A stretch of 64,000 nucleotides of DNA from a bacterium. Its GTDB lineage: Bacteria; Zhuqueibacterota; Zhuqueibacteria; Residuimicrobiales; Krinioviventaceae. The notes under the pieces are model-generated. The model was given only the letters and a program-made list of their open reading frames with translations, was not told where the DNA came from and did not search any database. A program made the position numbers and the translations under genes. Positions 15,891 through 28,328 of the stretch are shown here, in pieces (position 1 is the first letter of the stretch; each line of letters begins with the position of its first letter). The DNA lies in NCBI GenBank assembly GCA_963675755.2, contig CAXXMD010000002.1:576001-640000 (forward strand). The letters are read 5' to 3'.

Positions 15891-18110
15891 ATGCGCTCAT
15901 TAACAAGATTTGTTCTGATTGCCCTTTGTTTTTCTACTATTTCTTCTGCACAAATTAATCCTGTTCAACTTGAACCGGCACTAGTTTTCAACTCTGATCG
16001 TTCTACAACTTTTACAAGAACGATTTACTCTTTGGGATCTCGGTTCTCATCTACAGATTCTATTTTTGCTTTACAAAAAATCCAAAAATTTAATATAACC
16101 AAGGTTGATTCTGTTAATAACCACGAGTTACAAATTGATTTTATTATTGAACCTGGATTTACAGAATTTGGCAAGCATAAATTTCTAGTTTTAGATTCTT
16201 TACAGCAGAAGAAATTAGATTTTACTTTGGATATAAGGTATGCAAATCCTCCATTTGTAGAATCAATTATAATACGCCAGAATAAAAAAGTAATGAATGA
16301 CACAATTCGCTTGTCAGATACGGATTATACTCTGGCTACTCTCACCATTAGAGGAACAGGTTTGTTCGACAATACCATTGTAGAGTTTGACGATCCTGCA
16401 ATTCAGGTTTTAAATACACCGGGGTGGAGAAGAAGTATTGCTCCAAATCTTTTGCAAGTGGGCCTTGAAATTAAATCCGGTAATATTAACGTTGGTTATA
16501 AACAATTTCGAATTAAAAATGATTTTGCCATGGAAGGATTTGGCAAGATTTTTATTAAAAGCAATAGAGCTCCTGTAATATACGGTACGGTCCCTGATAT
16601 TATCGCTGATGGTCAGGATCATCGTATACAAATCCGTGGTGATTATTTTCAATCAGGATTAACGGTATCATTGCTGCCTCAAGATGGTATTGCAAGAGTA
16701 CAAAATCGTTCAGCAAGTGATGTTGAATTGTTGATTAACATTCCTGTTTTAGAAAATTCAAAAAGTTATAAACTTGTTATCCAGAATCCTGATGGATTAT
16801 CTGATACTACAGGATATTTTACTGCAAAAACACCTCCGTTAAATAAAGCTTATGCCCGTTCATTAAATAATCAACCTGTATTTCTAGATAAAGAAACACG
16901 AATTGTATTTACGGTTCAAACCTATGCCAACAAACGATTAAACAAGCAAACCGCATATGAGATCAATATTGATGGTGTAAAATTTCCGGTTAATTCAGTA
17001 ATCAATGACAGTACTTGTGAAGCTGTTATAAAATTATCTCAAAAATCGCCATACACATTATTGAATCAACATGTTTTTACAATTAGTCCCGTAGACGCGG
17101 CACCCAAATGGAAAGGCCTGTTATTCAGCAAACCCGCACCAGATCTTACTTATATGTCTCCCGAAAATGTACTGCATCCCCAGGATACACTAAGTTTTGT
17201 GTTCAAAGGACAAAATTTAGATGATATAATCATGTATATTACCGATCCTGAAATCACTTTTAAAATTCAGGAAAATAGAGGGGATTTGATTCGAGTAACT
17301 GCTATAGCCGGACGTCATTTAAAAAATGGTACGTATCCTGTAAAAATTCGAAAAAATGATGTAACTTTTGAGTTCCCTGAGCATCAAATAATTATACAGC
17401 AGTGGCAGCCATTTACTGAATACGCCTCAATACATACTACCAGTTTGAAAAGTTTGCCATCTGATTCTTTGTGGAAAGAAAAACAGAGGGCCCGGATCAT
17501 TGAAAAAACAGACAAGTTACGAATGGATTTCTATTTGCAAAACTTGTCAAAAGAAGCTGGTACACAAAAAGTTTTTATTAATGCGGTTCTGATCGATTCT
17601 TCTAATGCTGTTCGAGCTGAGACGCGCTTTTTTAAAGCGTTGAGTTATGAAAATAAAACTTTTTCCTGGAATTGGCGTTTACATGAAAAAATTAAATCTG
17701 GTGATCGTATAGAGATTTCTATCAGCAATACTGGTGGTCAAAACAAAAAGACTGAGGTGTTTTTTGTAAAGCCACACTGGTCAGAATCTTTCAAGGGATC
17801 AACCTCATTTATAATTTTCAAAGCTCCAATGAATGGTGGTAATGCTACTGCGGAAATCTTAAGAACGGTTGCAATTGGTCTTTCGTATCAGCCATTTGAA
17901 AATAAAGACTTTTTGGAGTTTGATTCATCGATTTTAATAGGAAACGCAACATCGAGCGATAGTGATCTTGATGTGGATTTGGGTCTGGGTTTGAGTGTTA
18001 TTCTCTGGAACCATATTCAACTGGGATTTGGTTCAAACTTGACAAACGGACCCTTTTCAGAAATGTTTGCTTTTATGGGTACACGCATAAAAATACCTGT
18101 TCCCTGGTAA
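15891..18110 (+). CDS. Secreted hypothetical protein, beta-rich (Ig-like modules plus possible C-terminal OM beta-strands)
   Basis: Signal peptide (MRSLTRFVLIALCFSTISSAQ); IPT-like segments (IRGTGL, IRGDYF...NPDG, FKGQNL); amphipathic C-terminus ending in W. Confidence 0.6.
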   Translation: MRSLTRFVLIALCFSTISSAQINPVQLEPALVFNSDRSTTFTRTIYSLGSRFSSTDSIFALQKIQKFNITKVDSVNNHELQIDFIIEPGFTEFGKHKFLVLDSLQQKKLDFTLDIRYANPPFVESIIIRQNKKVMNDTIRLSDTDYTLATLTIRGTGLFDNTIVEFDDPAIQVLNTPGWRRSIAPNLLQVGLEIKSGNINVGYKQFRIKNDFAMEGFGKIFIKSNRAPVIYGTVPDIIADGQDHRIQIRGDYFQSGLTVSLLPQDGIARVQNRSASDVELLINIPVLENSKSYKLVIQNPDGLSDTTGYFTAKTPPLNKAYARSLNNQPVFLDKETRIVFTVQTYANKRLNKQTAYEINIDGVKFPVNSVINDSTCEAVIKLSQKSPYTLLNQHVFTISPVDAAPKWKGLLFSKPAPDLTYMSPENVLHPQDTLSFVFKGQNLDDIIMYITDPEITFKIQENRGDLIRVTAIAGRHLKNGTYPVKIRKNDVTFEFPEHQIIIQQWQPFTEYASIHTTSLKSLPSDSLWKEKQRARIIEKTDKLRMDFYLQNLSKEAGTQKVFINAVLIDSSNAVRAETRFFKALSYENKTFSWNWRLHEKIKSGDRIEISISNTGGQNKKTEVFFVKPHWSESFKGSTSFIIFKAPMNGGNATAEILRTVAIGLSYQPFENKDFLEFDSSILIGNATSSDSDLDVDLGLGLSVILWNHIQLGFGSNLTNGPFSEMFAFMGTRIKIPVPW

Positions 18111-18130
18111 TTGTTAATGGAGATTTTAGA

Positions 18131-18370
18131 ATGAATTGTGATGATATTTTAAATCGAATTTGTGATGACTTGTCAGAAGATATTAACTCTCAGGTTTGCA
18201 AAGATATTAAAAATCATTTAGAGTCGTGTGAAAATTGCAGTGCACAGATTAATTCAATGAAAAATGCAGTAAATTTATACAAATGCCTTGAAGAAAAAAA
18301 GGTACCAATTGTTGTGCATGAACGACTTTTGAAAATGTTGAATTTAGAGAATTTACCACCTGCTAAATAA
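18131..18370 (+). CDS. zf-HC2 (ZAS) anti-sigma-factor-like small protein
   Basis: MNC...HLESCENC (HxxxCxxC), 79 aa, GGAG RBS. Confidence 0.8.
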   Translation: MNCDDILNRICDDLSEDINSQVCKDIKNHLESCENCSAQINSMKNAVNLYKCLEEKKVPIVVHERLLKMLNLENLPPAK

Positions 18371-18371
18371 C

Positions 18372-19415
18372 CTATATATTTAGCAGTATTGTTATTAATG
18401 ATATGATTAATAACAATACTAAAATTGCAAATCCTCTTCCCCTGAATAATCTATTAATAATTCTATTCCTGGTATTGTTAACTGCTTTTCGCAATGGCAG
18501 CCAGAAATTTCTGTCCATAAATAGAAAAAAGGATTTTATTAATTCCTGCCCTGTATAAATCCATTGTTGTAAAAAATATTGTTGAGTATCCTGACTTTTT
18601 TGGTATTGCTGTTTAATCTCTGCTGGCATTACTTTTTGCTCTTCAACTTGCAAATTTAGCTCCAACTGATCCGGATCTAATCTGTAATAGGGGATATACA
18701 TTTTTTTTGTTGCTTTGCCCTTTTCATAGACAGAACCCGGTTTTATCCCTTTGTGGAATTTACCTTTTGCGTAAATTAATGAAATAATATCATTTAAATA
18801 AGCCGTCATGGTGGGATTGTGTTTATCAATCATTTCATTAATGAAATGTTGTTGTTGATTAAGTTGATCGATTAAAACATTTTTCTCTTTACTAAATGTA
18901 TCAAATATCCTAACAAGTTTGTTAATTGCTTTAAATAATTGATCATCAAAATCTGTAAATGAACCATCTTGTAAAAGAAAGGGGATTGATTTGAGTTCAA
19001 TATTAAAATTATAGTTTGTTGATTTATTATCATTGGTATCAAATACTTTTGAATTAATTATAAAAGATAATTTTAAACCAATATGCTCTTCAAAAGTATT
19101 AATATTTAAGCTTGTGTTTAAAAATCGTATGCTTTTATTTGCCAAATCACTATTGGTAGAATTAATATGCTGTTGAATTTTTGATGAAAGCATATAATCC
19201 TGCTTGAAATCTATTTTTATATTTTTATTGGGAAAATCATCCAGTGGTTTTTTATGTTTTCCAATGGATTTTAATTGTTCGTATTGCTCAATTTTGAATC
19301 GATTCACCTTGCTCATAGATTTTCCTGTTAAAAAATTATAAAAAGAAGTAAAATATAGATCATTTATCATTGCAAATTTCATCCCAAATACGTATAATTC
19401 TAAATAAAAAAACAT
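18372..19415 (-). CDS. Hypothetical protein with C-terminal membrane anchor
   Basis: 347-codon ORF ending in RGRGFAILVLLLIISLITILLNI; no recognised domain; start uncertain. Confidence 0.55.
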   Translation of the reverse strand: MFFYLELYVFGMKFAMINDLYFTSFYNFLTGKSMSKVNRFKIEQYEQLKSIGKHKKPLDDFPNKNIKIDFKQDYMLSSKIQQHINSTNSDLANKSIRFLNTSLNINTFEEHIGLKLSFIINSKVFDTNDNKSTNYNFNIELKSIPFLLQDGSFTDFDDQLFKAINKLVRIFDTFSKEKNVLIDQLNQQQHFINEMIDKHNPTMTAYLNDIISLIYAKGKFHKGIKPGSVYEKGKATKKMYIPYYRLDPDQLELNLQVEEQKVMPAEIKQQYQKSQDTQQYFLQQWIYTGQELIKSFFLFMDRNFWLPLRKAVNNTRNRIINRLFRGRGFAILVLLLIISLITILLNI

Positions 19416-19454
19416 GTATTTTCAATTCCAATCAAGTTAGATTTGGGTGATGAA

Positions 19455-20624
19455 ATGGCGGATAATGAATTCAAGATTGTAGAATTTTCCAATCAAACCA
19501 AAAATGATAGACAATTATTGAAACAGTTTGTTGATTTTCATTGGTCACATTATGAAAATGATCCTCAATATGTACCTTTATTGGATTATGAATATTTGGG
19601 TTTTCGTTTAATTGGCATGACAGGTTTTTTTGAACCCCGCAATTTATTTTTTAAACATGCGGAAATGCGTTTTTTCCTGGCTCAACGAAACGGAGAAACT
19701 GTTGGCCGATGTAACGCTTTTGTGAATCATAGCTATAATGAACATTGGAATGAAAAGACAGGATTTTGGGGACAATTTGAATCAATTGATGATCTTGATG
19801 TTGCACGTGCATTAACAGATGCTGCTGCAAACTGGCTCGCAAAGCAGGGAATGGATACGATGCGAGGACCTCAAAATCTACCCATTAATGAAGCTACTCC
19901 TGGTTTGTTAACTGAGGGCTTTGACACCAGACCTGTGATTTATTATCAATATAATAAACCTTATTATCAAAGTTTAATAGAGCAGCTTGACTTTAAACCC
20001 GCAAAGAAATTTTTATCATGGGAAGCACCAGTAAATCAGGGTGAAAAACCAAAGCTTGAACGCGTTACTGAAAAGATAATGAAACGTTTTGATATTAAAG
20101 TTGAAACCTGGGATCAACGTCCGTTTAAAACCCGTCGTCAAGAGATGTTTGAAATTTATAATGACGCATGGAGTGATAATTATAATTTTGTACCTTTTAC
20201 GCAGGAAGAGTTTTTTTCCATAGTTAGTGATATGATGCTGGTAATGGATAAAAAATTATTTTTATTTATTTATGTAAATGATGAACCCGCAGCATTTTTT
20301 GGTGGCGTGCCTAATATTAATGAAGTTATAAAACCCATTCGCGAAATTAAAAGATGGGAATTGATACGTGCTATCAAGATGTTATTAACCAAACAAAGTG
20401 TTAAAGGATTTAGATTAGGGTATTTGGGAGTAAAAAAGAAATTCAGAAGAATGGGGCTCGATGGTTTGATGTTGTGGAAACAACACGCATATTCCAAACA
20501 AGCTGGCTATGAATATTCTGATTTAGGTTGGGTTTTGGAGGATAATGTAATGGTACATCGATTGATCGATTTAATTATTGCAAAACCTTCAAAAGTTTAT
20601 ACGATTTATGAAAAGCAAATTTGA
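19455..20624 (+). CDS. YghO-like double-GNAT-fold N-acyltransferase
   Basis: GFWGQFE, MRGP, YNKPYY, YNDAWSDNYNFVP, LGVKKKFRRMGLD, GWVLEDN. Confidence 0.75.
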   Translation: MADNEFKIVEFSNQTKNDRQLLKQFVDFHWSHYENDPQYVPLLDYEYLGFRLIGMTGFFEPRNLFFKHAEMRFFLAQRNGETVGRCNAFVNHSYNEHWNEKTGFWGQFESIDDLDVARALTDAAANWLAKQGMDTMRGPQNLPINEATPGLLTEGFDTRPVIYYQYNKPYYQSLIEQLDFKPAKKFLSWEAPVNQGEKPKLERVTEKIMKRFDIKVETWDQRPFKTRRQEMFEIYNDAWSDNYNFVPFTQEEFFSIVSDMMLVMDKKLFLFIYVNDEPAAFFGGVPNINEVIKPIREIKRWELIRAIKMLLTKQSVKGFRLGYLGVKKKFRRMGLDGLMLWKQHAYSKQAGYEYSDLGWVLEDNVMVHRLIDLIIAKPSKVYTIYEKQI

Positions 20625-20644
20625 AAAATAGTATAGGAGTTGAT

Positions 20645-21598
20645 ATGTCTCAAGTGAATCGTCGTGATTTTATTAAAAAAAGTAGTATTGTTGCTGGAAC
20701 TGCAGCAATGGGAGGATTGATTCAAGCTTGTTCCAAATCTGAAAAACCTGTTGCAAGTTGGAATGGTTTTAAACATGCAATGTGTAACGAAAGTATGCAG
20801 GATTTGAGTTGGTCTGAACAGTGTAGTATTGTTGCAAATGCCGGATACCAGGGAATTGAGATTGCTCCATTTACCTTGGTTCAAAATGGAGTAAGCGATA
20901 TTGATGAAAACGGTCGCAAAGAAATGAAAAAAGTGATGAATGATTTGGGATTAGAATGTGCTGGTTTGCATTGGTTATTGGCTCCACCTCCCAAAGGATT
21001 GCATTTTACAACTCCCGATGCTAAACTTCGTGCAAAAACTGTAGATTATTTAAATCAGTTGATTGATTTTTGTGGCGATTTAGGCGGTACAGCTATGATT
21101 TTTGGTTCGCCAAAGCAACGTAACACTCTGGGAATTTCTATAGACGAAGCTAAAAAATATTTTACTGAAAATTTAGCTTCTGTTGCTGATCATGCTCAGG
21201 CACGTGGTGTTAAGATTTTGATTGAACCACTGGATACAAGCCAAACAGATGTTATCAATGTAACTGCAGAAGCTGTTGAAATTATCAACAAAATCAATCA
21301 TCCAGCAATTCAAACCATGTTTGATTTTCATAATACTCCTAATGAAACAGAACCGTTTGATGTAATTGTTGAAAAAAATTATCAATACATAAAACATGTT
21401 CATGTTCAGGAAATGGATGGTAAATATCTGGGTACTGGTGATTCGGTTGATACATTTGTCAAAGCATTCCAGGTACTGAAAAACAAAAATTATGACAAGT
21501 GGGTGTCACTGGAAGTTTTTGATTTTACACCAGGCGGAAAAACTATAGCCGAAAGCTCTATTAAGGTTTTGAAAGAGATAGAATCTAAACTTGTATAA
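20645..21598 (+). CDS. Sugar phosphate isomerase/epimerase (xylose-isomerase-like TIM barrel, D-psicose/tagatose 3-epimerase-like), Tat lipoprotein
   Basis: Tat motif RRDFIK and lipobox LIQAC; metal ligands IEPL, DFH, HVH, SLEVF; AGGAG RBS before ATG 20645. Confidence 0.85.
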   Translation: MSQVNRRDFIKKSSIVAGTAAMGGLIQACSKSEKPVASWNGFKHAMCNESMQDLSWSEQCSIVANAGYQGIEIAPFTLVQNGVSDIDENGRKEMKKVMNDLGLECAGLHWLLAPPPKGLHFTTPDAKLRAKTVDYLNQLIDFCGDLGGTAMIFGSPKQRNTLGISIDEAKKYFTENLASVADHAQARGVKILIEPLDTSQTDVINVTAEAVEIINKINHPAIQTMFDFHNTPNETEPFDVIVEKNYQYIKHVHVQEMDGKYLGTGDSVDTFVKAFQVLKNKNYDKWVSLEVFDFTPGGKTIAESSIKVLKEIESKLV

Positions 21599-21604
21599 GT
21601 TGTA

Positions 21605-21637
21605 ATAAAAGGCGTTGATATCATCAACGCCTTTTAT
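21605..21637 (+). terminator. Rho-independent terminator
   Basis: ATAAAAGGCGTTGAT-atc-ATCAACGCCTTTTAT. Confidence 0.85.
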
Positions 21638-21681
21638 AATTTAAAAAAAATGTTGCATAATTCATAAAAAATGATTTATTC

Positions 21682-21704
21682 ATTCATGTTTTCACTACAT
21701 GAAT
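21682..21704. promoter_or_regulatory. Palindromic operator-like site upstream of the TopIB gene
   Basis: ATTCATGT-N7-ACATGAAT perfect 8-bp inverted repeat, 25 nt before the start codon. Confidence 0.35.
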
Positions 21705-21729
21705 TTATTCGAAAGGAAATAAGCAGGTT

Positions 21730-23478
21730 TTGTTAACTAAACTTATCCATAATGGAATTATCGTTCCGGATCCCCCAAAATATCATGGTGTAACCTTAAA
21801 AGTCAAAGATCAACAAATTAAACTTTCCCCAAAACAGGAAGAAATGGCCTATGCCTGGGCAAAAAAACAAGGTACACCTTATGTAGAAGATCTTGTATTT
21901 GTTAAGAATTTTCTCAAGGATTTTAGCCTTGCCCTTGGTTTTAAAAAAGCCCTTAAACTTGATGAAATAGATTTCACTCCCGTTTATAAGATTGTTGATA
22001 AAGAACGTGCCGCTCGTGAAGCCATGAGCAAGGAAGATAAAAAACTCCTTGCAGCGAAACGCAAAGAGATTCGTGAAGAGTTGAAAGAGAAATATGGTTT
22101 TGCTTCAACTGGCGATGAGAGAATAGAACTTGCGAATTATTTAACAGAACCCAGTGGTATTTTTATGGGTAGGGGTAAACATCCATTACGTGGACGTTGG
22201 AAAGAAGGTGCCTCCCAAAAAGATGTTACCTTGAATCTTAGCCCCGATGCACCTGTGCCTCCCGGAGATTGGAAGGAAATTGTTTGGCAACCTGACTCTT
22301 TATGGGTTGCAAGATGGGATGACAAGTTGTCAGGTAAATTAAAATATATCTGGCTGCACGATACTGCTCCTATCAAGCAGGCACGTGAAGCAAAGAAATT
22401 TGATAAAGCACTCGAATTAAATTCAAGAATTGAAAAAGTTAGAAAATCAATTGAAAAAGATTTGCAAAGTGAAGAGTTCAAAATCCGCAAAGTTGCTACC
22501 GCATGTTTTTTGATTGACGCGTTATGTCTTCGTGTTGGTGATGAAAAGGATCCTGAAGAAGCGGATACCGTTGGTGCAACCACATTACGTCCCGAACATA
22601 TAAAATTTCTCAAAGATGGCCGTGTAGAATTTAGATTCTTGGGAAAGGACTCTGTACTTTGGGATAAAAAGATAGAACTACCGGATTTTGTTAAAGATAA
22701 TTTAACAGAGTTGTCTGAAAAAGCAAGGCCCTCAACCAACAGCTTTGGTAAAGTAAAACATGAAGCTTATAATAAACCACAATTATTTCCTGACATTACC
22801 AGCCGTAATGTTAATGCGTATTTATCGCATCATATGAAAGGTTTAACTGCCAAGGTTTTTCGTACTCACCATGCTACCAATGTTGTAAAAACTTCATTAG
22901 AAAATTCCAATGTAGTTAAAACTGATCCTGAATATGTTAAATGGGAAGCAACTGTAAACGCAAACCTTGAAGCTGCAATTTTATGTAATCATACAAAGCA
23001 GCCACCCAAAAATTGGGCAGAGCGTAAAGTAAAATTTAGAGAACGCGAAAAAAGTGCCAAGGAAAGAATTGAAAATATAAAAACTTTGCTCAAAACGCTC
23101 AAGCAAGAAGTTAAAGATCTTAAAGTAGAATATAAAGAAAAGAAAGAGGCTGCACCTAATAAAGCCCAACGAAAAAAGATAAAAGAACGATACGATAAAA
23201 AAATTCAGGCTAAAAAGAGTAGACTGGAAGCTACCATTCAACGTGAAGAAAAAGCACAAATTGCATTAGGTAAATTACGTGCACAAAAAGCTATTGCTTC
23301 TCAAAACAGAACCTGGAACTTGGGTACAAGCCAAAAATCATATATTGATCCTAGAGTATTTCACGAATGGGGAAAATCAGTTAATTACGATGTTATAGAT
23401 AAATACTATTCAGCAACACTTAAACGCAAGTTTATGTGGGTCAAAGAGCAGGATAATGATGAAAATGAAACTGCTTGA
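21730..23478 (+). CDS. DNA topoisomerase IB, large eukaryotic/archaeal type
   Basis: N-terminal HNG and EEMA, GRGKHPLRG; catalytic residues LRVG (R268), GKDS (K306), KVFRT (R378), ILCNH (H421) and SYIDPR (Y538); coiled-coil linker before the catalytic Tyr. Confidence 0.93.
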   Translation: MLTKLIHNGIIVPDPPKYHGVTLKVKDQQIKLSPKQEEMAYAWAKKQGTPYVEDLVFVKNFLKDFSLALGFKKALKLDEIDFTPVYKIVDKERAAREAMSKEDKKLLAAKRKEIREELKEKYGFASTGDERIELANYLTEPSGIFMGRGKHPLRGRWKEGASQKDVTLNLSPDAPVPPGDWKEIVWQPDSLWVARWDDKLSGKLKYIWLHDTAPIKQAREAKKFDKALELNSRIEKVRKSIEKDLQSEEFKIRKVATACFLIDALCLRVGDEKDPEEADTVGATTLRPEHIKFLKDGRVEFRFLGKDSVLWDKKIELPDFVKDNLTELSEKARPSTNSFGKVKHEAYNKPQLFPDITSRNVNAYLSHHMKGLTAKVFRTHHATNVVKTSLENSNVVKTDPEYVKWEATVNANLEAAILCNHTKQPPKNWAERKVKFREREKSAKERIENIKTLLKTLKQEVKDLKVEYKEKKEAAPNKAQRKKIKERYDKKIQAKKSRLEATIQREEKAQIALGKLRAQKAIASQNRTWNLGTSQKSYIDPRVFHEWGKSVNYDVIDKYYSATLKRKFMWVKEQDNDENETA

Positions 23479-23574
23479 TTAATTAATAATTTTATTGTAA
23501 TTTTTTACATCTTTAAATTTATCCATGTAAACTTTTGGAGCAATTAAGATTCATCATTTTAACTTAACCTATGG

Positions 23575-24291
23575 ATGGAATCCATGCCTGATGAAAGAGT
23601 TTTACGTTTATTAAAATTTGTTCCTCTTTTTTCCAAATTGAGTGAAGCAGAATTAATACAAATTTCAGATCAATGTGTAAAAAAAGAGTGTCAAAAAGAC
23701 CAGGTTCTATTTGTTGAAGAAGAATCCGGTCAGACATTATTTATTATTCTCAAAGGAACAGTAAAGATTACCCGTACAAGTGATGAAGGCAAAGAGGTAA
23801 TTTTAACAATTTTAAAATCAGGCGATTTTTTTGGTGAATTGTCTTTACTTGACGGTAAAGGTCGTTCAGCCACCGTAATTGCAATGGCAGAGACGGAACT
23901 CTTGTTGCTTCGAAGAAGCGAATTTTTATTAATTATTGAAAAATTTCCCCACATTGCTTCTGAATTGCTCAAAGTGCTTGCTGACAGAATAAGAAAATGT
24001 GATGTTCAGATTGAAAATCTCACACTTCAAGATGCTGTAGGTAGAGTAGGGGCTACATTAATTCACGTAGCAGAACAGACAGGCTACAAGCGTGGTAAAA
24101 GTATGGTAATTCCTAAACTACCTGTTCAGCAAGACCTGGCAAATATGGCAGGCACTGCTCGGGAAACCATTTCAAGAGTTATGGCTCTTTTCGAACAAGA
24201 AGAACTGTTTGTGAGAGAAGGAGGCCACCGTGTAGTTTTTCCGGATTTTGAAAGGTTTAAATCCGATTATTGGTCTGCAAGTAAAGATTGA
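23575..24291 (+). CDS. Crp/Fnr family transcriptional regulator (cNMP-binding)
   Basis: FFGELSLLDGKGRSAT cNMP pocket; HTH QDLANMAGTARETISR. Confidence 0.92.
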   Translation: MESMPDERVLRLLKFVPLFSKLSEAELIQISDQCVKKECQKDQVLFVEEESGQTLFIILKGTVKITRTSDEGKEVILTILKSGDFFGELSLLDGKGRSATVIAMAETELLLLRRSEFLLIIEKFPHIASELLKVLADRIRKCDVQIENLTLQDAVGRVGATLIHVAEQTGYKRGKSMVIPKLPVQQDLANMAGTARETISRVMALFEQEELFVREGGHRVVFPDFERFKSDYWSASKD

Positions 24292-24300
24292 TTATTTGTA

Positions 24301-24810
24301 ATGCAAAATTTAGAAATTAAAGCAAAATTCTCTGATCTTAAATATGCTGAACAAATAGCAATACAAATACATGCTGTCAAAAAGTGGACAAGAAAACAAA
24401 AAGATATTTATTTTATTACACCTAAAGATAAATTAAAGCTCAGAATAGTTGATGATGCTGTATGTGATTTGATTTATTATAACAGACCTGAAAATAAAAA
24501 AGCAGAAATTAGTAATTATAAAATATATAAAACACAAAAACCACAAGAGCTGCTTGAAATCCTGACTGATATTTTTTCAATTGATATTATTGTCGAAAAA
24601 ACAAGAACATTATATCTTTATGAAAATGTTCGTATCCATCTTGATTCTGTTAATCAACTTGGTTCTTTTATTGAATTTGAAGCTGTTTTAGATGATAAAA
24701 ATGATTTAAATGTTTCTGTTGATCATTTGGATTTTTTAAGTAAAAAATTTAACATTAGTGATAATCAATTAGTAGATACTGGTTATTTTGAATTATTAAA
24801 AAACAAATAA
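24301..24810 (+). CDS. CYTH domain protein / class IV adenylate cyclase (CyaB-like)
   Basis: NLEIKAK, QKDIYF, LKLR, VEKTR, IHLD, GSFIEFE. Confidence 0.85.
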   Translation: MQNLEIKAKFSDLKYAEQIAIQIHAVKKWTRKQKDIYFITPKDKLKLRIVDDAVCDLIYYNRPENKKAEISNYKIYKTQKPQELLEILTDIFSIDIIVEKTRTLYLYENVRIHLDSVNQLGSFIEFEAVLDDKNDLNVSVDHLDFLSKKFNISDNQLVDTGYFELLKNK

Positions 24811-24825
24811 TATTTTGGAGCGAGT

Positions 24826-25773
24826 GTGTACGGTAATTTAAAGGTATTTTCTGGTAACAGTAATCCTCAATTAGCAAAAGATATTTGTGAAAATATCGGA
24901 ATTGAACTTGGTAAAATCAGAATTCACAAATTCAGTAATGAAAATATTAAAGTGAAAATTGAAGAAAACGTTAGGAATGATGACGTATATGTATTGCAGA
25001 GTGCATCAAAGCCTTTAAACGAACACTTTATGGAATTGTTGATCATTCTTGATGCATTAAAATATGCTTCTGCCAGAAGAATCACAGTTGTAACTCCATA
25101 TTATTTTTATGCACGCTCTGATAAAAAGGATGAGCCCAGAATTTCAATTACTGCCAGATTGGTTGCAGAGTTACTTAAAGCAGCTGGTGCTGATAGAATT
25201 ATTACAATGGAATTGCATGCACCTCAAATTATGGGTTTTTCACGTATACCAATGGATCAGCTTTTGCCAACCCAAATTTTACTGAATCATTACCGTCAAA
25301 AAGATCTTTCAAATGCTGTAATTGCTGCTACTGATGTGGGTGGTGCTAAAGCTGCCAGAAAATTTGCCAGACAACTTGGTCTGCCAATGGTAGTAATGGA
25401 TAAAGAGAGGATAGGGGATAAAGAAAAAGTAATCATTAATAATATTATTGGTGATGCACAAAACAAGGATGTTTTGATTATTGATGATGAGATCCTGTCT
25501 GGTGGTTCAGTGCTCGAAGCAGTCAAGTTTTTAAAAGAACATGGAGCGAACCGTATTTGGGCTGGTTGTACTCACGGTTTTATGACATCAGAAGTTTTAG
25601 ATAAATTTCAGGAATCAGAGGTTGAAGAGTTGGTAACGACCAATACTGTACCCCAACTGCTTTCTGAAAAACATACAAAAGTTAAAGTATTATCTGTTGC
25701 AGAATTATTTGCAAAGGCAATCACTGCAATACATGTTGGAGATTCTGTTGGTGCGTTGTTTAGTGACTCGTGA
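24826..25773 (+). CDS. prs: Ribose-phosphate pyrophosphokinase
   Basis: FSGNSNPQLA, YARSDKK, LHAPQI, DVGG, IIDDEILSGGS. Confidence 0.95.
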   Translation: MYGNLKVFSGNSNPQLAKDICENIGIELGKIRIHKFSNENIKVKIEENVRNDDVYVLQSASKPLNEHFMELLIILDALKYASARRITVVTPYYFYARSDKKDEPRISITARLVAELLKAAGADRIITMELHAPQIMGFSRIPMDQLLPTQILLNHYRQKDLSNAVIAATDVGGAKAARKFARQLGLPMVVMDKERIGDKEKVIINNIIGDAQNKDVLIIDDEILSGGSVLEAVKFLKEHGANRIWAGCTHGFMTSEVLDKFQESEVEELVTTNTVPQLLSEKHTKVKVLSVAELFAKAITAIHVGDSVGALFSDS

Positions 25774-26411
25774 GAATGTTAATGAATAATAACTATGATA
25801 TTGTATTTTTTGACCTGGGAAATGTACTTGTTAATGTAAATATTGAAATGTTTTTTGCAAACCTTGCAATAATAACCGGTAGTTGCATGATGGATGTGTA
25901 TTCTGTAGCAGATTCACATGCCGATACTATAGAGCAATTTAACAAGGGCTTAATCTCTGCTGACCAATTTTATGAAAAAGTAACATCAAGTTATAATAAC
26001 ATTACTTTTGAACAATTCTCTGATGCATATACTGATATATTTACATTAAATGCACCCATTGTTCCTTTGGTTAATTTATTGCAAAAGTCTGAAAAATTGT
26101 CTATTATAAGCAATACAGATATATTGCATTTTGAATATATCAAAAAGAAATTCAACTTAATCAATGATTTTGAAAATCCAGTTACTTCATACGAGGTTCA
26201 TTCTTTAAAACCAGAGCCTGAAATTTATTTAAATGCAATGAACCAATTTAAAGTACAACCCAATCATTGTATTTTTATTGACGACAAGAAAGAAAATATA
26301 ACTGCTGCCAATGATCTGGGTATGACAGGAATACATTTTACCAATGTAAACAGACTTGTTGACACATTAATTAATTTAGGATTTACAAACTTGAAAACCC
26401 TGGAGGTTTAA
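25770..26411 (+). CDS. HAD family phosphatase (YihX-like)
   Basis: FFDLGNVL, SNT, KPEPEIY, FIDD. An alternative start is ATG 25782. Confidence 0.9.
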   Translation: MRMLMNNNYDIVFFDLGNVLVNVNIEMFFANLAIITGSCMMDVYSVADSHADTIEQFNKGLISADQFYEKVTSSYNNITFEQFSDAYTDIFTLNAPIVPLVNLLQKSEKLSIISNTDILHFEYIKKKFNLINDFENPVTSYEVHSLKPEPEIYLNAMNQFKVQPNHCIFIDDKKENITAANDLGMTGIHFTNVNRLVDTLINLGFTNLKTLEV

Positions 26412-27638
26412 ATGTCAGTATTGGCAATAAATGGTGGAACACCTGTAAGAACAGATTCATTTCCTGTTTGGCCGGTTTGGGGTGAAGAAGAAATTAATAA
26501 TGTTACCAATGTTATAAAAAGCGGAAAATGGGGTTGTTTAAATGGAACAATCACATCTGAATTTGAAAAAAAATATGCATCCTATATGAATGCCAAACAT
26601 GGAATTTGTGTAAACAGTGGGACTACTGCTTTACAAATAGCACTCAAAGCTGCTGATGTTGATGCAGGATCAGAAGTTATGGTCCCAGCTTATACTTTTA
26701 TTGCAACTGCAACTGCAGTTGTAGAGATGGGTTGTATTCCCATATTTGTTGATATTGATCCTGAAACTTATAATATTGATGTTGATAAAGCTGAACAAGC
26801 TATTACTGATAAAACCGCAGCTATAATGCCCGTCCATTTTGCAGGCTGTCCTGCAGATATGGATAAAGTTATGGCGCTTGCCCAGAAACATAACTTGAAA
26901 GTAATTGAGGATGCAGCACAGGCATGGGGCTCCGAATGGAAAGGTCAACGTGTAGGTGCATTAGGAGATGCAGGTTGTTTCAGTTTCCAATCCTCAAAAA
27001 ATATTAATTCCGGTGAAGGTGGAATAATATTAACTAACGATGATGAAGTTGCTAAAATGGCAAGATCGCATATCAATTGTGGTAGAAGTGAAGATGGTCT
27101 TTGGTATGAGCATTTTTATTTCGGTGGTAATTACCGAATTACCGATCTCCAGTCTGCTGTATTGATGGCACAATTCGAGCGATATGATGAACTCATGGCA
27201 ATTCGTAAAGAAAATTTTCAATATCTCTCAGATGCATTAAAGGATATTGAAGGTATTGAACCTTTAACAATTGATGAACGGGTTACATCAAATTCTTGTC
27301 ATTTGTTTATTTTTAAATATAAAAAAGAGCATTTTAATAACGTATCCAAATCATCTTTTATTGATGCTTTACGTAAAGAAGGAATCTATACAAGCCCTGG
27401 TTATTCATTGCCTTTGTATAAACAACCTGTATTTATGAATAAAGCATTTGGGCCCAGAGGAAAATCAATTGATTTACCAGTTGATTACAACTCTTTTTCA
27501 TGTCCTGAAACAGAAAAAGCCTGTTATGAGGAAGCTATTTGGTTCACTCAAAATATGTTTTTAGGTGATCAAAATGATATGGATGATATTGTTGATGCAA
27601 TATTAAAAATTTCTGAGAATAAATCTGAACTGAGTTGA
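26412..27638 (+). CDS. DegT/DnrJ/EryC1/StrS PLP aminotransferase
   Basis: LAINGGTPVR, NSGTTAL, EDAAQA, FSFQSSK (PLP Lys), GEGG, GNYR. Confidence 0.93.
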   Translation: MSVLAINGGTPVRTDSFPVWPVWGEEEINNVTNVIKSGKWGCLNGTITSEFEKKYASYMNAKHGICVNSGTTALQIALKAADVDAGSEVMVPAYTFIATATAVVEMGCIPIFVDIDPETYNIDVDKAEQAITDKTAAIMPVHFAGCPADMDKVMALAQKHNLKVIEDAAQAWGSEWKGQRVGALGDAGCFSFQSSKNINSGEGGIILTNDDEVAKMARSHINCGRSEDGLWYEHFYFGGNYRITDLQSAVLMAQFERYDELMAIRKENFQYLSDALKDIEGIEPLTIDERVTSNSCHLFIFKYKKEHFNNVSKSSFIDALRKEGIYTSPGYSLPLYKQPVFMNKAFGPRGKSIDLPVDYNSFSCPETEKACYEEAIWFTQNMFLGDQNDMDDIVDAILKISENKSELS

Positions 27639-27648
27639 GGGGGTATTT

Positions 27649-27954
27649 TTGTTATCGGTTTGCAGGATGTGTGGGCGGCGATCTTTGCGGCCAAAAGACC
27701 TGTTAAGAAATCCGTTTAATGTTACATTCATCTGTACGTATTGTGGAGCAGAATATAAAGTAACAAAAAACTTTATTCACTTTATAATTGTTTTTTTGAT
27801 ATGGATTCTAACATTTGTTGCATTTTTTTTATTAACAGTATTTAATTTTGATGGAATATTAAAGCTGATTTTGAGTTTTATAATATTAATCATTTCATTT
27901 ACCATTTCTGTAATGATTGGGAATTTGGATAAAATTAGTCGTTTACGAAAATAA
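27649..27954 (+). CDS. Small zinc-ribbon membrane protein (CxxC-x20-CxxC plus two TM helices)
   Basis: CRMC...CTYC followed by two hydrophobic helices; TTG start after GAGGGG. Confidence 0.6.
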   Translation: MLSVCRMCGRRSLRPKDLLRNPFNVTFICTYCGAEYKVTKNFIHFIIVFLIWILTFVAFFLLTVFNFDGILKLILSFIILIISFTISVMIGNLDKISRLRK

Positions 27955-27962
27955 GTGAGAAT

Positions 27963-28328
27963 ATGTTCAAACTAACTGTTCATTCTACTTTTTCAGCAGC
28001 TCATCGTCTTGTTGATTATTCAGGTGCTTGCCAGAGAATCCATGGTCATAATTGGAAAGTACGGGCAACAATTGAATCTGATCGATTAAATGACCTGGGA
28101 ATGGTAATGGATCTATATGAACTCGAAACTATATTAAATACTACTTTGAAAAAGTTTGATCATTATATTATTAATGATATTGAACCATTTACAGAGATAA
28201 ATCCAACTTCTGAAAACCTTGCTAAATATATATACTATGATATAAAGAAACAATTATCAGAACCTATAAAAATGGTACAGGTTGAACTTTTAGAAACGGA
28301 TGATTTCTCTGTAACTTTTGCCGAATAA
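27963..28328 (+). CDS. queD: 6-carboxy-5,6,7,8-tetrahydropterin synthase
   Basis: FSAAHRL, CQRIHGHNW, DH, NPTSENLA, ET. Confidence 0.93.
   Translation: MFKLTVHSTFSAAHRLVDYSGACQRIHGHNWKVRATIESDRLNDLGMVMDLYELETILNTTLKKFDHYIINDIEPFTEINPTSENLAKYIYYDIKKQLSEPIKMVQVELLETDDFSVTFAE

What the first reader, a model, noticed from the sequence alone, without database searches (positions are those of the whole stretch)
21730..23478. Eukaryote/archaea-type large topoisomerase IB in a bacterial chromosome
Seen: a 582-aa protein with motifs matching human Top1 (HNG, GRGxHP, LRVG.EKD..ADTVG, FLGKDS, AKVFRT, AILCNH, LGTS..Y.DPR), an intact R-K-R-H-Y pentad, the N-terminal cap region and a linker. Established: typical bacterial TopIB is the short poxvirus-like form of about 330 aa, while the long form characterises eukaryotes and Thaumarchaeota-related archaea. 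The flanking genes are ordinary bacterial ones with no mobile-element marks. Inference: an inter-domain transfer, probably from archaea, that has been domesticated.
Basis: partly seen in the sequence, partly recalled or inferred. Interest (0 to 1): 0.82.

Follow-up and report, generated by a model that had tools for sequence, protein, structure and literature searches.

The report
Eukaryote-type topoisomerase IB in bacteria
A sediment-type bacterium carries an intact DNA-untwisting enzyme of the long form otherwise known from eukaryotes, giant viruses and archaea, and the gene turns out to be a stable, inherited part of whole bacterial orders whose closest relatives are in Asgard archaea.

Summary
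Window 21730-23478 (+) encodes a 582-aa long-form topoisomerase IB. It has all three eukaryote-type Pfam domains, the R268-K306-R378-H421-Y538 pentad and a coiled-coil linker. A confident model superposes on human TOP1-DNA complexes (TM 0.81-0.83).

The host is a 6.5-Mb KSB1-phylum bacterial chromosome. The locus is not chimeric: an independent closed chromosome of the same genus is colinear.

The gene is not a lone or recent import:
- It is in 39 of 41 genomes of its order, and its tree and distances follow GyrA.
- It is under strong purifying selection (dN/dS 0.04) and has host-like composition.
- The rest of the phylum has no TopIB of any form.
- The same clade is near-universal in at least two Chloroflexota orders (42/42, 21/23).

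In my trees the bacterial sequences form one clade (support 99-100), sister to Asgard (Thorarchaeota-type) TopIB. They share an insertion, a longer linker and Ser before the catalytic Tyr.

An ancient archaea-to-bacteria transfer followed by vertical descent is the best reading. Direction is unproven, eukaryote sequences could not be obtained, and an AU test against the main alternative was borderline (p 0.058). My literature searches found no description of long-form TopIB in bacteria.

The parts
21605..21637 (.). 15-bp perfect hairpin between the upstream TIM-barrel epimerase-like gene (stop at 21598) and the TopIB gene. It looks like a terminator and implies that TopIB has its own transcription start.
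   Evidence: -19.6 kcal/mol, z -6.5, 0 of 200 shuffles fold as well. Sequence read. The consensus terminator scan did not list it.
21633..21661 (+). Sigma-70-like promoter match (TTTATA, 17 nt, CATAAT; 9 of 12). Weak evidence.
   Evidence: 13 such matches in the region against 7.6 expected, so this is not evidence of function on its own.
21714..21717 (+). AGGA, a possible ribosome-binding site 12 nt before the TTG start.
   Evidence: Read directly; inference.
21730..23478 (+). Coding sequence of the long-form DNA topoisomerase IB, 582 aa, TTG start, TGA stop.
   Evidence: Homologues align from residue 1.
21739..22356 (+). N-terminal DNA-binding 'cap' domain (residues 4-209, Pfam Topoisom_I_N), the mark of the long form.
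   Evidence: 1e-49, profile 5-213 of 213. Yeast N-terminal fragment 1ois matched at 1.8e-24.
22369..23085 (+). Catalytic core (residues 214-452, Pfam Topoisom_I).
   Evidence: 6.4e-60.
22531..22533 (+). Codon of R268 (pentad; LRVGDEK motif).
   Evidence: 69 of 69 rows RKRHY.
22645..22647 (+). Codon of K306 (pentad; FLGKDS motif).
22711..22779 (+). Segment (about residues 328-350) carrying the insertion shared by the bacterial and Asgard clades and absent from BAT-type archaeal and giant-virus enzymes.
   Evidence: One search shows a 10-residue gap in 6z01 here. One search gives the K306-to-R378 spacing as median 73 (bacteria) and 78 (Asgard) against 61 (BAT) and 59 (NCLDV).
22861..22863 (+). 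Codon of R378 (pentad; AKVFRT motif).
22990..22992 (+). Codon of H421 (pentad; LCNH motif).
23014..23304 (+). Linker: two long antiparallel helices (residues 429-474 and 478-525), a coiled coil as in human TOP1 but longer than in BAT-type archaea.
   Evidence: model pLDDT 91.8. One search gives the H421-to-Y538 spacing as 118 in bacteria (range 117-120), against median 66 in BAT, 70 in NCLDV and 211 in Asgard.
23269..23460 (+). C-terminal domain (residues 514-577, Pfam Topo_C_assoc) that carries the catalytic tyrosine.
   Evidence: 1.4e-13.
23338..23343 (+). Codons of S537 and Y538. Y538 is the predicted catalytic tyrosine. The residue before it is Ser in all bacterial and Asgard rows and Asn elsewhere.
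   Evidence: Ser in 37 of 37 Asgard and bacterial rows; Asn in 32 of 32 BAT, L162 and NCLDV rows.

Best explanation
The gene encodes a functional long-form (eukaryote/archaea-type) type IB DNA topoisomerase. The enzyme clamps duplex DNA between the N-terminal cap and the catalytic core. Tyr538, helped by R268, K306, R378 and H421, nicks one strand and forms a 3'-phosphotyrosyl link. Supercoils of either sign relax by controlled rotation, braked by the coiled-coil linker. The nick is then resealed. No ATP or Mg2+ is needed. The mechanism is inferred from family membership and was not assayed.

In this bacterium it is an extra chromosomal swivel. It stands beside two type IA enzymes and a single gyrase-type type IIA enzyme.

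Historically it is not a recent import. A long-form gene entered Bacteria once or a few times from an archaeal lineage related to the Asgard (Thorarchaeota-type) TopIB clade. It spread between KSB1 and Chloroflexota lineages early on. In the window's order it has been inherited vertically ever since, under strong purifying selection.
For: Identity and integrity:
- Three Pfam domains.
- 468 bits to the solved Caldiarchaeum TOP1 and 239 to human TOP1, against 22 to the short forms.
- Pentad intact in 69 of 69 rows.
- AlphaFold model pLDDT 91.8, pTM 0.84.
- That model superposes on human TOP1-DNA complexes at TMq 0.81, TMt 0.83, rmsd 4.1-4.4 A over 587 columns. Variola and Deinococcus short forms align over only 237-243 columns at TMq 0.25-0.31.

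Not an artefact:
- A closed 6.5-Mb chromosome of the same genus is colinear across 10 genes at 84-99% amino-acid identity.
- An 80-kb Logan contig spans window 18000-28000 with 0 differences, though it may come from the source sample.

Vertical descent:
- 39 of 41 genomes of the order, in 21 of 21 genera.
- The same subclades appear in the GyrA and TopIB trees.
- Pairwise distances of the two proteins correlate across 21 genomes: Pearson 0.76, and 0 of 2000 permutations were as high.
- Two conserved housekeeping contexts are found.

Constraint:
- dN/dS is 0.042.
- GC and GC3 are within 0.5 sd of 46 neighbouring ORFs.

Restricted origin:
- The 124 genomes of the phylum without a match are the same in both scans, PF02919 and PF01028.
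- 4 of 401 sampled Chloroflexota have it, but 42 of 42 and 21 of 23 in two orders.

Placement:
- Bacteria are monophyletic (SH-aLRT 99, UFBoot 100).
- Asgard plus Bacteria group together (100 and 100), with BAT-type archaea and then giant viruses outside.
- Shared derived characters support this: the insertion, the longer linker, a W-x-P-[DE]-S motif and Ser before the Tyr.
- The Asgard rows are really archaeal: Nep1 and aIF6 flank L194, and 34 of 35 organism-named homologues are Asgard.
Against: No activity or expression data exist, and no RNA run was listed.

Limits of the tree:
- It lacks true eukaryotes. Giant-virus sequences stand in for them; they score 431 bits to human TOP1 against 340 to 6z01.
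- The archaeal rows came from one motif-based metagenome scan that stopped at 120 rows. A closer archaeal or other donor could be unsampled.
- The AU test of the alternative 'Asgard plus BAT together, bacteria outside' was 63.9 lnL units worse but gave p 0.058, so it is not formally rejected.
- Bacterial and Asgard clades are reciprocally monophyletic, so the direction (archaea to bacteria, the reverse, or both from a third source) rests on parsimony.
- KSB1 monophyly is weak (UFBoot 66).
- The second KSB1 lineage (family f6) is unplaced: it is sister to Chloroflexota at 89.5/85 in one tree, but AU p 0.64 for grouping it with the order.
- The site-heterogeneous 'careful' search never finished.

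Other limits:
- The 'species tree' is a single 440-aa GyrA fragment.
- 122 of the 202 GTDB hits were never shown, so other phyla may hold the gene.
- No link to loss of another topoisomerase was found. One GyrA/ParC-type gene is the rule across the phylum, with or without TopIB.
Confidence: 0.72

Rival explanations
1. The transfer ran the other way or through a third party. The Thorarchaeota-type Asgard TopIB was acquired from bacteria, or both clades took it from an unsampled lineage such as a virus or another archaeal group.
For: Bacterial and Asgard clades are reciprocally monophyletic, with neither nested in the other. Both are patchy within their domains: 4 of 401 Chloroflexota and 43 of 167 KSB1. 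A passage of Forterre 2025 (PMC12395588) reads Asgard TopIB as itself laterally acquired from BAT archaea. The joint stem is long (0.49-0.64 changes per column), which leaves room for unsampled intermediates.
Against: All other long forms sampled are archaeal or eukaryote-virus. With a giant-virus root, the sister of the (Asgard plus Bacteria) clade is archaeal, so an archaeal ancestor needs fewer domain changes. No phage record matched. No plasmid record held the long form: 92 records, none covering 80% of the query and at most 48% among the 15 listed. The only IMG/VR locus found with the bacterial motifs is 31% identical.
Confidence: 0.2
2. The long form is ancestral in Bacteria, or at least in these phyla, and was lost almost everywhere.
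For: It is near-universal within three orders. The AU test does not quite reject placing bacteria outside all archaeal rows (p 0.058).
Against: It is missing from 124 of 167 genomes of its own phylum and from 397 of 401 sampled Chloroflexota. KSB1 and Chloroflexota sequences differ by about 0.42-0.47 (identity to the window protein 0.53-0.96, median 0.58), roughly the same as the maximum inside the single KSB1 order (0.42). That is far too little for a split as old as the phyla. Derived characters are shared with Asgard.
Confidence: 0.04
3. Assembly or binning artefact: an archaeal fragment joined to a bacterial contig.
For: Nothing positive. In run X2, from the same sample as X1, the contigs leave a 78-base gap (21645-21723) just upstream of the gene.
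Against: Run X1 holds one 80-kb contig across 18000-28000 with no differences. An independently assembled closed chromosome of the same genus, and two genomes of another genus, have the same gene order. Composition is host-like. 39 of 41 related genomes carry the gene.
Confidence: 0.01
4. A decaying or non-catalytic relic, or a protein with a new non-topoisomerase role.
For: No assay or transcript evidence is available.
Against: The frame is intact in nearly all relatives; among the genomes only G010 shows an internal stop. The pentad is invariant. dN/dS is 0.042. The fold is confidently modelled as a closed clamp.
Confidence: 0.03

Closest known systems
Asgard (Thorarchaeota-type) topoisomerase IB, listed in Asgard papers as a eukaryotic signature protein
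   Same: It is the sister clade in all my trees (support 100). Both share an insertion between K306 and R378, an extended linker, the W-x-P-[DE]-S-[LM]-W motif and Ser before the catalytic Tyr. Identity to the window protein is 47-51%.
   Different: The Asgard proteins are about 670 aa, with an H-to-Y spacing of 211 residues against 118 here. They have RVEH/RAEH where bacteria have RPEH. The host domain differs.
BAT-type archaeal TOP1, e.g. Caldiarchaeum subterraneum CsTOP1 (PDB 6Z01/6Z03; Takahashi 2022, PMC8748870; Dahmane 2016, PMC4824112)
   Same: Same three-domain architecture and pentad. It is the best solved-structure match (3.7e-139, 468 bits; Foldseek E 1.6e-46). Its canonical relaxation activity was shown experimentally (passages seen).
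   Different: It has a shorter linker (median H-to-Y spacing 66), lacks the insertion and has Asn before the Tyr. It forms a separate clade (SH-aLRT 92, UFBoot 81).
Human TOP1 (PDB 1K4T, 1A36, 1RRJ)
   Same: The whole-chain fold matches: TMq 0.81, TMt 0.83, rmsd 4.1-4.4 A over 587 columns. The cap, core, coiled-coil linker, C-terminal domain and pentad are the same.
   Different: About 30% identity. It has no long charged N-terminal extension. Ser replaces the Asn before the catalytic Tyr; from recall, this is the human N722S camptothecin-resistance change.
Short bacterial/poxviral TopIB (Deinococcus radiodurans 2F4Q/3M4A; variola 2H7F)
   Same: The catalytic core and tyrosine chemistry are homologous.
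   Different: Only residues about 176-385 align, at E 4e-4 to 5e-4, and TMq is 0.25-0.31 over 237-243 columns. The short form has no Topoisom_I_N cap and no linker. All 92 plasmid hits are of this form, and the listed ones cover at most 48% of the query.
Giant-virus long TopIB (Tupanvirus, Powai lake megavirus, Edafosvirus)
   Same: Full-length long form; 30-35% identical to the window protein.
   Different: It is closer to human TOP1 than to archaeal TOP1 (431 against 340 bits). It has a short linker and Asn before the Tyr. It serves as the outgroup in my trees.

Membership tests
Long-form (eukaryote/archaea-type) topoisomerase IB | N-terminal cap domain (Pfam PF02919 Topoisom_I_N) | tested here: met
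   1e-49, 169 bits against a cut-off of 25; residues 4-209 cover profile positions 5-213 of 213.
Long-form (eukaryote/archaea-type) topoisomerase IB | Catalytic core (PF01028) plus C-terminal domain (PF14370) carrying the tyrosine | tested here: met
   6.4e-60 and 1.4e-13, both over the curated cut-offs.
Long-form (eukaryote/archaea-type) topoisomerase IB | Active-site pentad Arg-Lys-Arg-His-Tyr | tested here: met
   R268, K306, R378, H421 and Y538 align with the motif positions of human TOP1. They are invariant in 15 of 15 rows and 69 of 69 rows.
Long-form (eukaryote/archaea-type) topoisomerase IB | Coiled-coil linker between core and C-terminal domain, and the closed-clamp fold | tested here: met
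   helices 429-474 and 478-525, pLDDT 91.8. TM 0.81-0.83 to human TOP1-DNA complexes.
Long-form (eukaryote/archaea-type) topoisomerase IB | Mg2+- and ATP-independent relaxation of positive and negative supercoils through a 3'-phosphotyrosyl intermediate | not testable with these tools
   Needs purified protein. Shown for the Caldiarchaeum homologue in the literature (PMC4824112 and PMC8748870, passages seen).
Short poxvirus-like bacterial topoisomerase IB | About 300-350 aa, with a small virus-type N-terminal domain in place of Topoisom_I_N and no linker | tested here: not met
   The protein is 582 aa. Pfam lists only the three eukaryote-type domains at E <= 0.01. The short forms match only the core, at E about 4e-4 and TMq 0.25-0.31.
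BAT-type (Thaumarchaeota/Aigarchaeota) archaeal TopIB | Clade membership; short linker (H-to-Y spacing about 57-123, median 66); Asn before the catalytic Tyr | tested here: not met
   It falls outside the BAT clade. The spacing is 118 and the residue is Ser537.
Asgard Thorarchaeota-type TopIB | Clade membership; about 670 aa with an H-to-Y spacing of 211; shared insertion and Ser before the Tyr | tested here: inconclusive
   It is sister to this clade, not a member of it (100/100). It shares the insertion and the Ser but not the 211-residue linker region.

The most novel reading that the evidence does not exclude
Long-form topoisomerase IB, counted as a 'eukaryotic signature protein' of Asgard archaea, belongs to an inter-domain exchange network among sediment microbes. 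One clade is shared by Thorarchaeota-type Asgard archaea, a KSB1 order and several Anaerolineae orders. Its direction is open: Asgard may be the recipient, or a third party the source. On this reading whole bacterial orders run their chromosomes with a eukaryote-style swivelase. That enzyme carries, fixed in nature, the Ser-for-Asn change next to the catalytic tyrosine that (from recall) makes human TOP1 camptothecin-resistant.
Probability: 0.3. Interest if true: 0.75.

Novelty: new member of a known kind. Interest (0 to 1): 0.62.

Why it matters
Topoisomerase reviews and the primary papers I could read describe bacterial TopIB as the short form only, and the long form as restricted to eukaryotes, giant viruses and some archaea (PMC4824112 abstract; PMC8748870 passages). 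In the papers I read, the long form features in arguments about the archaeal root and the archaeal-eukaryal ancestor, and is listed as an Asgard 'eukaryotic signature protein'.

This window shows that a long-form clade is a fixed, vertically inherited gene of entire bacterial orders in two phyla, and that it is sister to the Asgard clade. Three consequences follow:
- The known host range of the enzyme changes.
- TopIB distribution should be used with caution as a marker of archaeal-eukaryotic ancestry.
- Bacterial proteins that should be easy to express become available for studying how linker length (118, against about 66 and 211 residues) and the Ser/Asn position affect controlled rotation and drug sensitivity.

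It also raises a physiological question. What does an ATP-independent remover of positive supercoils add to a bacterium that already has gyrase and two type IA enzymes?

Tried and rejected
Chimeric assembly. Rejected.

Recent lone transfer. Rejected.

Mobile-element carriage. No phage record matched. Plasmid records matched only as the short-form core. No integrase or transposase was found among the neighbours scanned in the window or in the conserved KSB1 contexts. One IMG/VR locus (L092) matched the bacterial motifs, but it is a 31%-identical giant-virus-like gene.

Compensation for a missing topoisomerase. The window's genome has two type IA matches and a single GyrA/ParC-type match. A single match is the rule across the phylum whether or not TopIB is present; only family f14 commonly shows two. 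No correlation was found.

Replacement of a short-form TopIB. Rejected. PF01028 finds the same 43 of 167 genomes as PF02919.

Separate acquisition by the second KSB1 lineage (f6). Suggested by a quick tree. The AU test found a better tree with f6 and the order together (p 0.64), and a full search put f6 beside Chloroflexota at 89.5/85. Left unresolved.

Eukaryote sequences. My last homologue search, seeded with a giant-virus protein, returned only giant-virus relatives. No eukaryote is in any tree.

Other attempts:
- The first AlphaFold run, with 15 sequences, gave a poor model (pLDDT 67) and was replaced.
- The site-heterogeneous 'careful' tree did not finish in 741 s. I used the quick PMSF tree and an LG+F+G4 bootstrap run instead.
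- AU test B (bacteria plus BAT) did not finish.
- No RNA holder was listed among the sequencing runs.
- There is no tRNA or Rfam match in the window.
- Supplementary files, such as Figure S1 of PMC12395588 with a TopIB tree, are closed. They may show bacterial sequences that I could not see.

Not-in-print claim. It rests on these searches:
- KSB1 + topoisomerase, 1 unrelated paper;
- topoisomerase IB + Anaerolineae, 0 papers;
- topoisomerase IB + Chloroflexi, 0 papers;
-, plus the passages read.
PMC2621148 was seen only as a listing and the start of its abstract. PMC11894792 returned no occurrence of the terms.
Full report
THE OBSERVATION

The window holds an uninterrupted ORF at 21730-23478 on the + strand. 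It is 582 codons long and starts with TTG. Pfam finds the three domains that define eukaryote-type topoisomerase I:
- Topoisom_I_N at residues 4-209 (1e-49);
- the catalytic core at 214-452 (6.4e-60);
- the C-terminal domain at 514-577 (1.4e-13).

Against all PDB sequences the best match is chain 6z01_A (3.7e-139, 468 bits). The paper that deposited it identifies this as TOP1 of the archaeon Caldiarchaeum subterraneum (PMC8748870, passages). Human TOP1 follows at about 1e-69 and 239 bits. The short Deinococcus and variola enzymes reach only E about 4e-4 over the core.

The pentad is R268, K306, R378, H421 and Y538. It is invariant in 15 of 15 close homologues and in 69 of 69 rows of my widest alignment.

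An AlphaFold model built on 108 homologues is confident (pLDDT 91.8, pTM 0.84). It shows two long antiparallel helices at 429-474 and 478-525, the linker coiled coil. The model superposes on human TOP1-DNA complexes at TMq 0.81, TMt 0.83 and rmsd 4.1-4.4 A over 587 columns. The short forms align over only 237-243 columns at TMq 0.25-0.31. The Caldiarchaeum crystal has the best Foldseek E-value but a low global TM (0.43-0.49). The likely reason is that it is the open apo form (described in PMC8748870) while the model is closed.

THE HOST AND THE LOCUS

The window is part of a 6.48-Mb genome in 3 contigs, 98% complete. The window also encodes UvrC, PcrA, PolX, a YbgF/BamD-type TPR protein, Crp, Prs, DAHP synthase and other ordinary bacterial genes. 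The nearest organism-named homologues are labelled candidate division KSB1.

Upstream of the gene lie:
- a 15-bp perfect hairpin at 21605-21637 (-19.6 kcal/mol, z -6.5);
- a weak promoter-like match;
- an AGGA 12 nt before the start.
The gene probably has its own transcription start.

GC (0.367) and GC3 (0.258) are within half a standard deviation of 46 other ORFs of the window.

A closed 6.5-Mb chromosome of the same genus has the same ten genes in the same order, at 84-99% amino-acid identity. Two genomes of another genus share the order at 41-85%. A Logan contig of 80 kb covers window 18000-28000 with no difference, although it may come from the sample of origin. A chimeric assembly is excluded as far as these data allow.

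DISTRIBUTION

Within the phylum:
- 39 of 41 genomes of the window's order have a homologue, in 21 of 21 genera, and nearly all of these are full length. Identity is 96% in the same genus and 61-73% elsewhere. The two genomes without a match are 86% and 92% complete.
- Across the phylum, 43 of 167 genomes match PF02919. They are the window's order plus one further family (f6, 4 of 4). Families f7 to f26 have none.
- PF01028, which also detects the short form (it rings in the Deinococcus control), finds exactly the same 43. The rest of the phylum therefore has no TopIB at all.
- These tallies include one unpublished genome, G158, which lacks the gene.

Beyond the phylum:
- A scan of one genome per GTDB species found 202 stretches encoding a relative, of which the best 80 were shown. 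By record title, 23 are KSB1-type (9 'KSB1', 6 'uncultured Cytophagia', 8 'bacterium') and 57 are Chloroflexota: Anaerolineae, Anaerolineales, Caldilineae, Ardenticatenales, Thermoflexales and 'Chloroflexia'.
- An even sample of the Chloroflexota phylum gave 4 of 401.
- The order of one carrier gave 42 of 42, and the order of another gave 21 of 23.
- One Chloroflexota locus lies on a closed chromosome, next to bacterial DNA polymerase I.

The long form is therefore rare across bacteria but near-universal in at least three orders of two phyla.

VERTICAL INHERITANCE IN THE WINDOW'S ORDER

A GyrA-fragment tree of 40 genomes makes the TopIB-bearing order one clade (SH-aLRT 99; one mistranslated row set aside). 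TopIB trees recover the same subclades:
- G000/G001/G017/G014/G005;
- G027/G025/G040;
- G008/G011/G006/G003/G013;
- family f4.

Pairwise distances of the two proteins correlate across 21 genomes. Pearson is 0.76, and 0 of 2000 permutations reached that value.

About 16 other KSB1 loci share a second conserved context of housekeeping genes: SurE, AccD, a GNAT, TsaB, TsaE and a divergent response-regulator-PglZ gene.

Against the same-genus orthologue, dS is 0.56, dN is 0.023 and dN/dS is 0.042.

The gene is an old, constrained resident of the lineage.

WHERE IT COMES FROM

Outgroups were collected in other ways:
- A degenerate pattern for TAKVFRTY found 41 IMG/VR stretches. With L092 this makes 42 viral loci, of which 39 hold a relative of the window protein at 26-35% identity. 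They are mostly giant-virus MAGs.
- Relatives of one of them are named Tupanvirus, Powai lake megavirus and Edafosvirus. That sequence scores 431 bits to human TOP1 against 340 to 6z01. This group stands in for the eukaryote side of the tree.
They are 27-56% identical to the window protein.

A FastTree of 96 representatives, an IQ-TREE quick search under LG+C20+F+G4 PMSF on 69 rows and an LG+F+G4 run with 1000 ultrafast bootstraps agree. Reading from the giant-virus outgroup, the order is:
- one long unplaced row (L162);
- a clade of 21 rows (SH-aLRT 92, UFBoot 81);
- a clade (100/100) made of 12 rows (100/100) plus all 25 bacterial rows (99/100).
Within the bacteria, Chloroflexota has 97/95 and KSB1 has 92/66.

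The 21-row clade is BAT-type archaeal. L180 scores 834 bits to the Caldiarchaeum structure. The 90%-identity clusters of 4 of the 10 rows looked up carry Nitrososphaerales or Nitrososphaeraceae names.

The 12-row sister clade is Asgard. L194 is flanked by Nep1, aIF6 and FtsY. Of the 35 organism-named homologues of its TopIB, 27 are Candidatus Thorarchaeota, 4 Promethearchaeota, 2 Sifarchaeia, 1 Hodarchaeota and 1 'Thermoplasmata'.

DISCRETE CHARACTERS

Discrete characters agree with the tree:
- The K306-to-R378 spacing is 73 in bacteria and 78 in Asgard, against 61 in BAT and 59 in giant viruses.
- The H421-to-Y538 spacing is 118 in bacteria (range 117-120) and 211 in Asgard, against medians of 66 and 70.
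- A W-x-P-[DE]-S-[LM]-W motif replaces H-D-x-x-S-T-W.
- The residue before the catalytic tyrosine is Ser in 37 of 37 Asgard and bacterial rows and Asn in 32 of 32 others.

CAVEATS ON THE ORIGIN

- No eukaryote sequence is in the tree.
- The archaeal sample is motif-limited and capped at 120 rows.
- The careful site-heterogeneous search did not finish.
- An AU test of 'Asgard plus BAT together, bacteria outside' was 63.9 log-likelihood units worse but gave p 0.058.
- Bacterial and Asgard clades are reciprocally monophyletic, so the tree does not give the direction.
- With archaeal lineages on both sides of the bacterial clade, an archaeal source needs the fewest domain changes. This is parsimony, not proof.
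- Divergence between KSB1 and Chloroflexota sequences (about 0.42-0.47) barely exceeds the maximum inside the KSB1 order (0.42). The gene therefore moved between the phyla, or into both from one source, at about the time these orders began to diversify.
- The placement of KSB1 family f6 is unresolved.

HOW IT PROBABLY WORKS

By membership in the family, the protein should clamp duplex DNA and cleave one strand through Y538, forming a 3'-phosphotyrosine. It should let supercoils of either sign relax by controlled rotation against the linker, then religate, without ATP or Mg2+. This is shown for the Caldiarchaeum homologue in the literature (PMC4824112, PMC8748870) and is only inferred here.

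The genome keeps two type IA topoisomerases and one gyrase-type enzyme. Nearly the whole phylum has a single GyrA/ParC-type match whether or not TopIB is present. TopIB is thus an addition rather than a replacement.

A plausible benefit is ATP-free removal of positive supercoils ahead of replication and transcription. This is inference only.

The fixed Ser537 corresponds, by my recall, to the human N722S camptothecin-resistance change. The human chain that scored best (1rrj) shows Ser at that place. It comes from the entry titled 'Structural Mechanisms of Camptothecin Resistance by Mutations in Human Topoisomerase I'. The bacterial and Asgard enzymes may therefore be naturally insensitive to camptothecin, which can be tested.

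COMPARISON WITH WHAT IS KNOWN, AND NOVELTY

- Dahmane et al. 2016 state in their abstract that among prokaryotes the long version is seen only in Thaumarchaeota. In passages I read, they treat all bacterial sequences as short forms.
- Takahashi et al. 2022 draw bacterial and viral TopIB as the short architecture.
- Forterre 2025 describes Topo IB as ubiquitous in BAT archaea and Eukarya, with a few Asgard exceptions.
- Asgard papers list TopIB as a eukaryotic signature protein of Thor-, Gerd-, Balder- and Hermodarchaeota.
- Searches pairing 'topoisomerase IB' with Anaerolineae or Chloroflexi found no paper. KSB1 with 'topoisomerase' found one unrelated paper.

The proteins themselves are in public databases, labelled 'DNA topoisomerase I'. 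The family is known, but its bacterial clade and that clade's sister relation to the Asgard clade appear undescribed in what I could search.

I rate it a new member of a known kind, with interest about 0.6. It would surprise a topoisomerase-evolution specialist and bears on the use of TopIB as an archaeal-eukaryotic marker. The enzyme class and mechanism are not new, and the key evolutionary inference still needs a fuller tree.

Noticed in passing
L074 and the genomes of its order (G167, G572-G611); also P0091, P0104, P0115: In one Chloroflexota order the TopIB open frames are mostly about 730-830 aa rather than about 580. In my rows the extra length lies either before the cap domain (up to about 374 residues before the first pentad Arg) or after the tyrosine motif (up to 219 residues). 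The nature of these extensions was not examined.
   Followed up: no
L162:3282-5042 (-), a metagenome contig of 388 kb, 30% GC in the locus: A 587-aa long-form TopIB that branches alone between the giant-virus group and all archaeal and bacterial rows (long branch). It has a long H-to-Y spacing (114) but Asn before the Tyr. The flanks are ambiguous: an N-glycosylase/DNA lyase and an anti-sigma-factor antagonist. The organism is unknown.
   Followed up: partly
Whole genome G000 and the phylum: The genome has only one GyrA/ParC-type gene, so there is apparently no separate topoisomerase IV. The same holds for nearly all genomes with a match among the 167 genomes of the phylum. Only family f14 commonly shows two.
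   Followed up: partly
window 15891-18110 (+), 18372-19415 (-), 19443-20624 (+): Three ORFs of 739, 347 and 393 aa just upstream of the TopIB locus have no Pfam or NCBIfam family at the thresholds used. The 393-aa one is conserved next to the epimerase-like gene and TopIB in two genera at 66-94% identity.
   Followed up: no
window 23575-24810 (+): Directly downstream lie a Crp/Fnr-type regulator and a CYTH/class IV adenylate-cyclase-like protein (50 bits, below the curated cut-off of 58). This is a possible cyclic-nucleotide signalling pair. The Crp gene stays beside TopIB in the two genera that share the synteny; the CYTH gene was found beside it in L012 and L019 but not in L013.
   Followed up: no
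L093-L133 (IMG/VR): With L092, 39 of 42 viral loci hold a relative of the window protein, about 30 of them aligning over nearly its whole length. They are mostly giant-virus MAGs. Named relatives include Tupanvirus and Powai lake megavirus. So some Mimiviridae-like viruses carry the long form, not only the short poxvirus-like one.
   Followed up: partly
G010:C5:405230-406961 (same family as the window's genome): This genome's TopIB appears broken. The match is split in two, with one TGA inside the second piece. It is the only clear case of decay seen among the 41 relatives.
   Followed up: no
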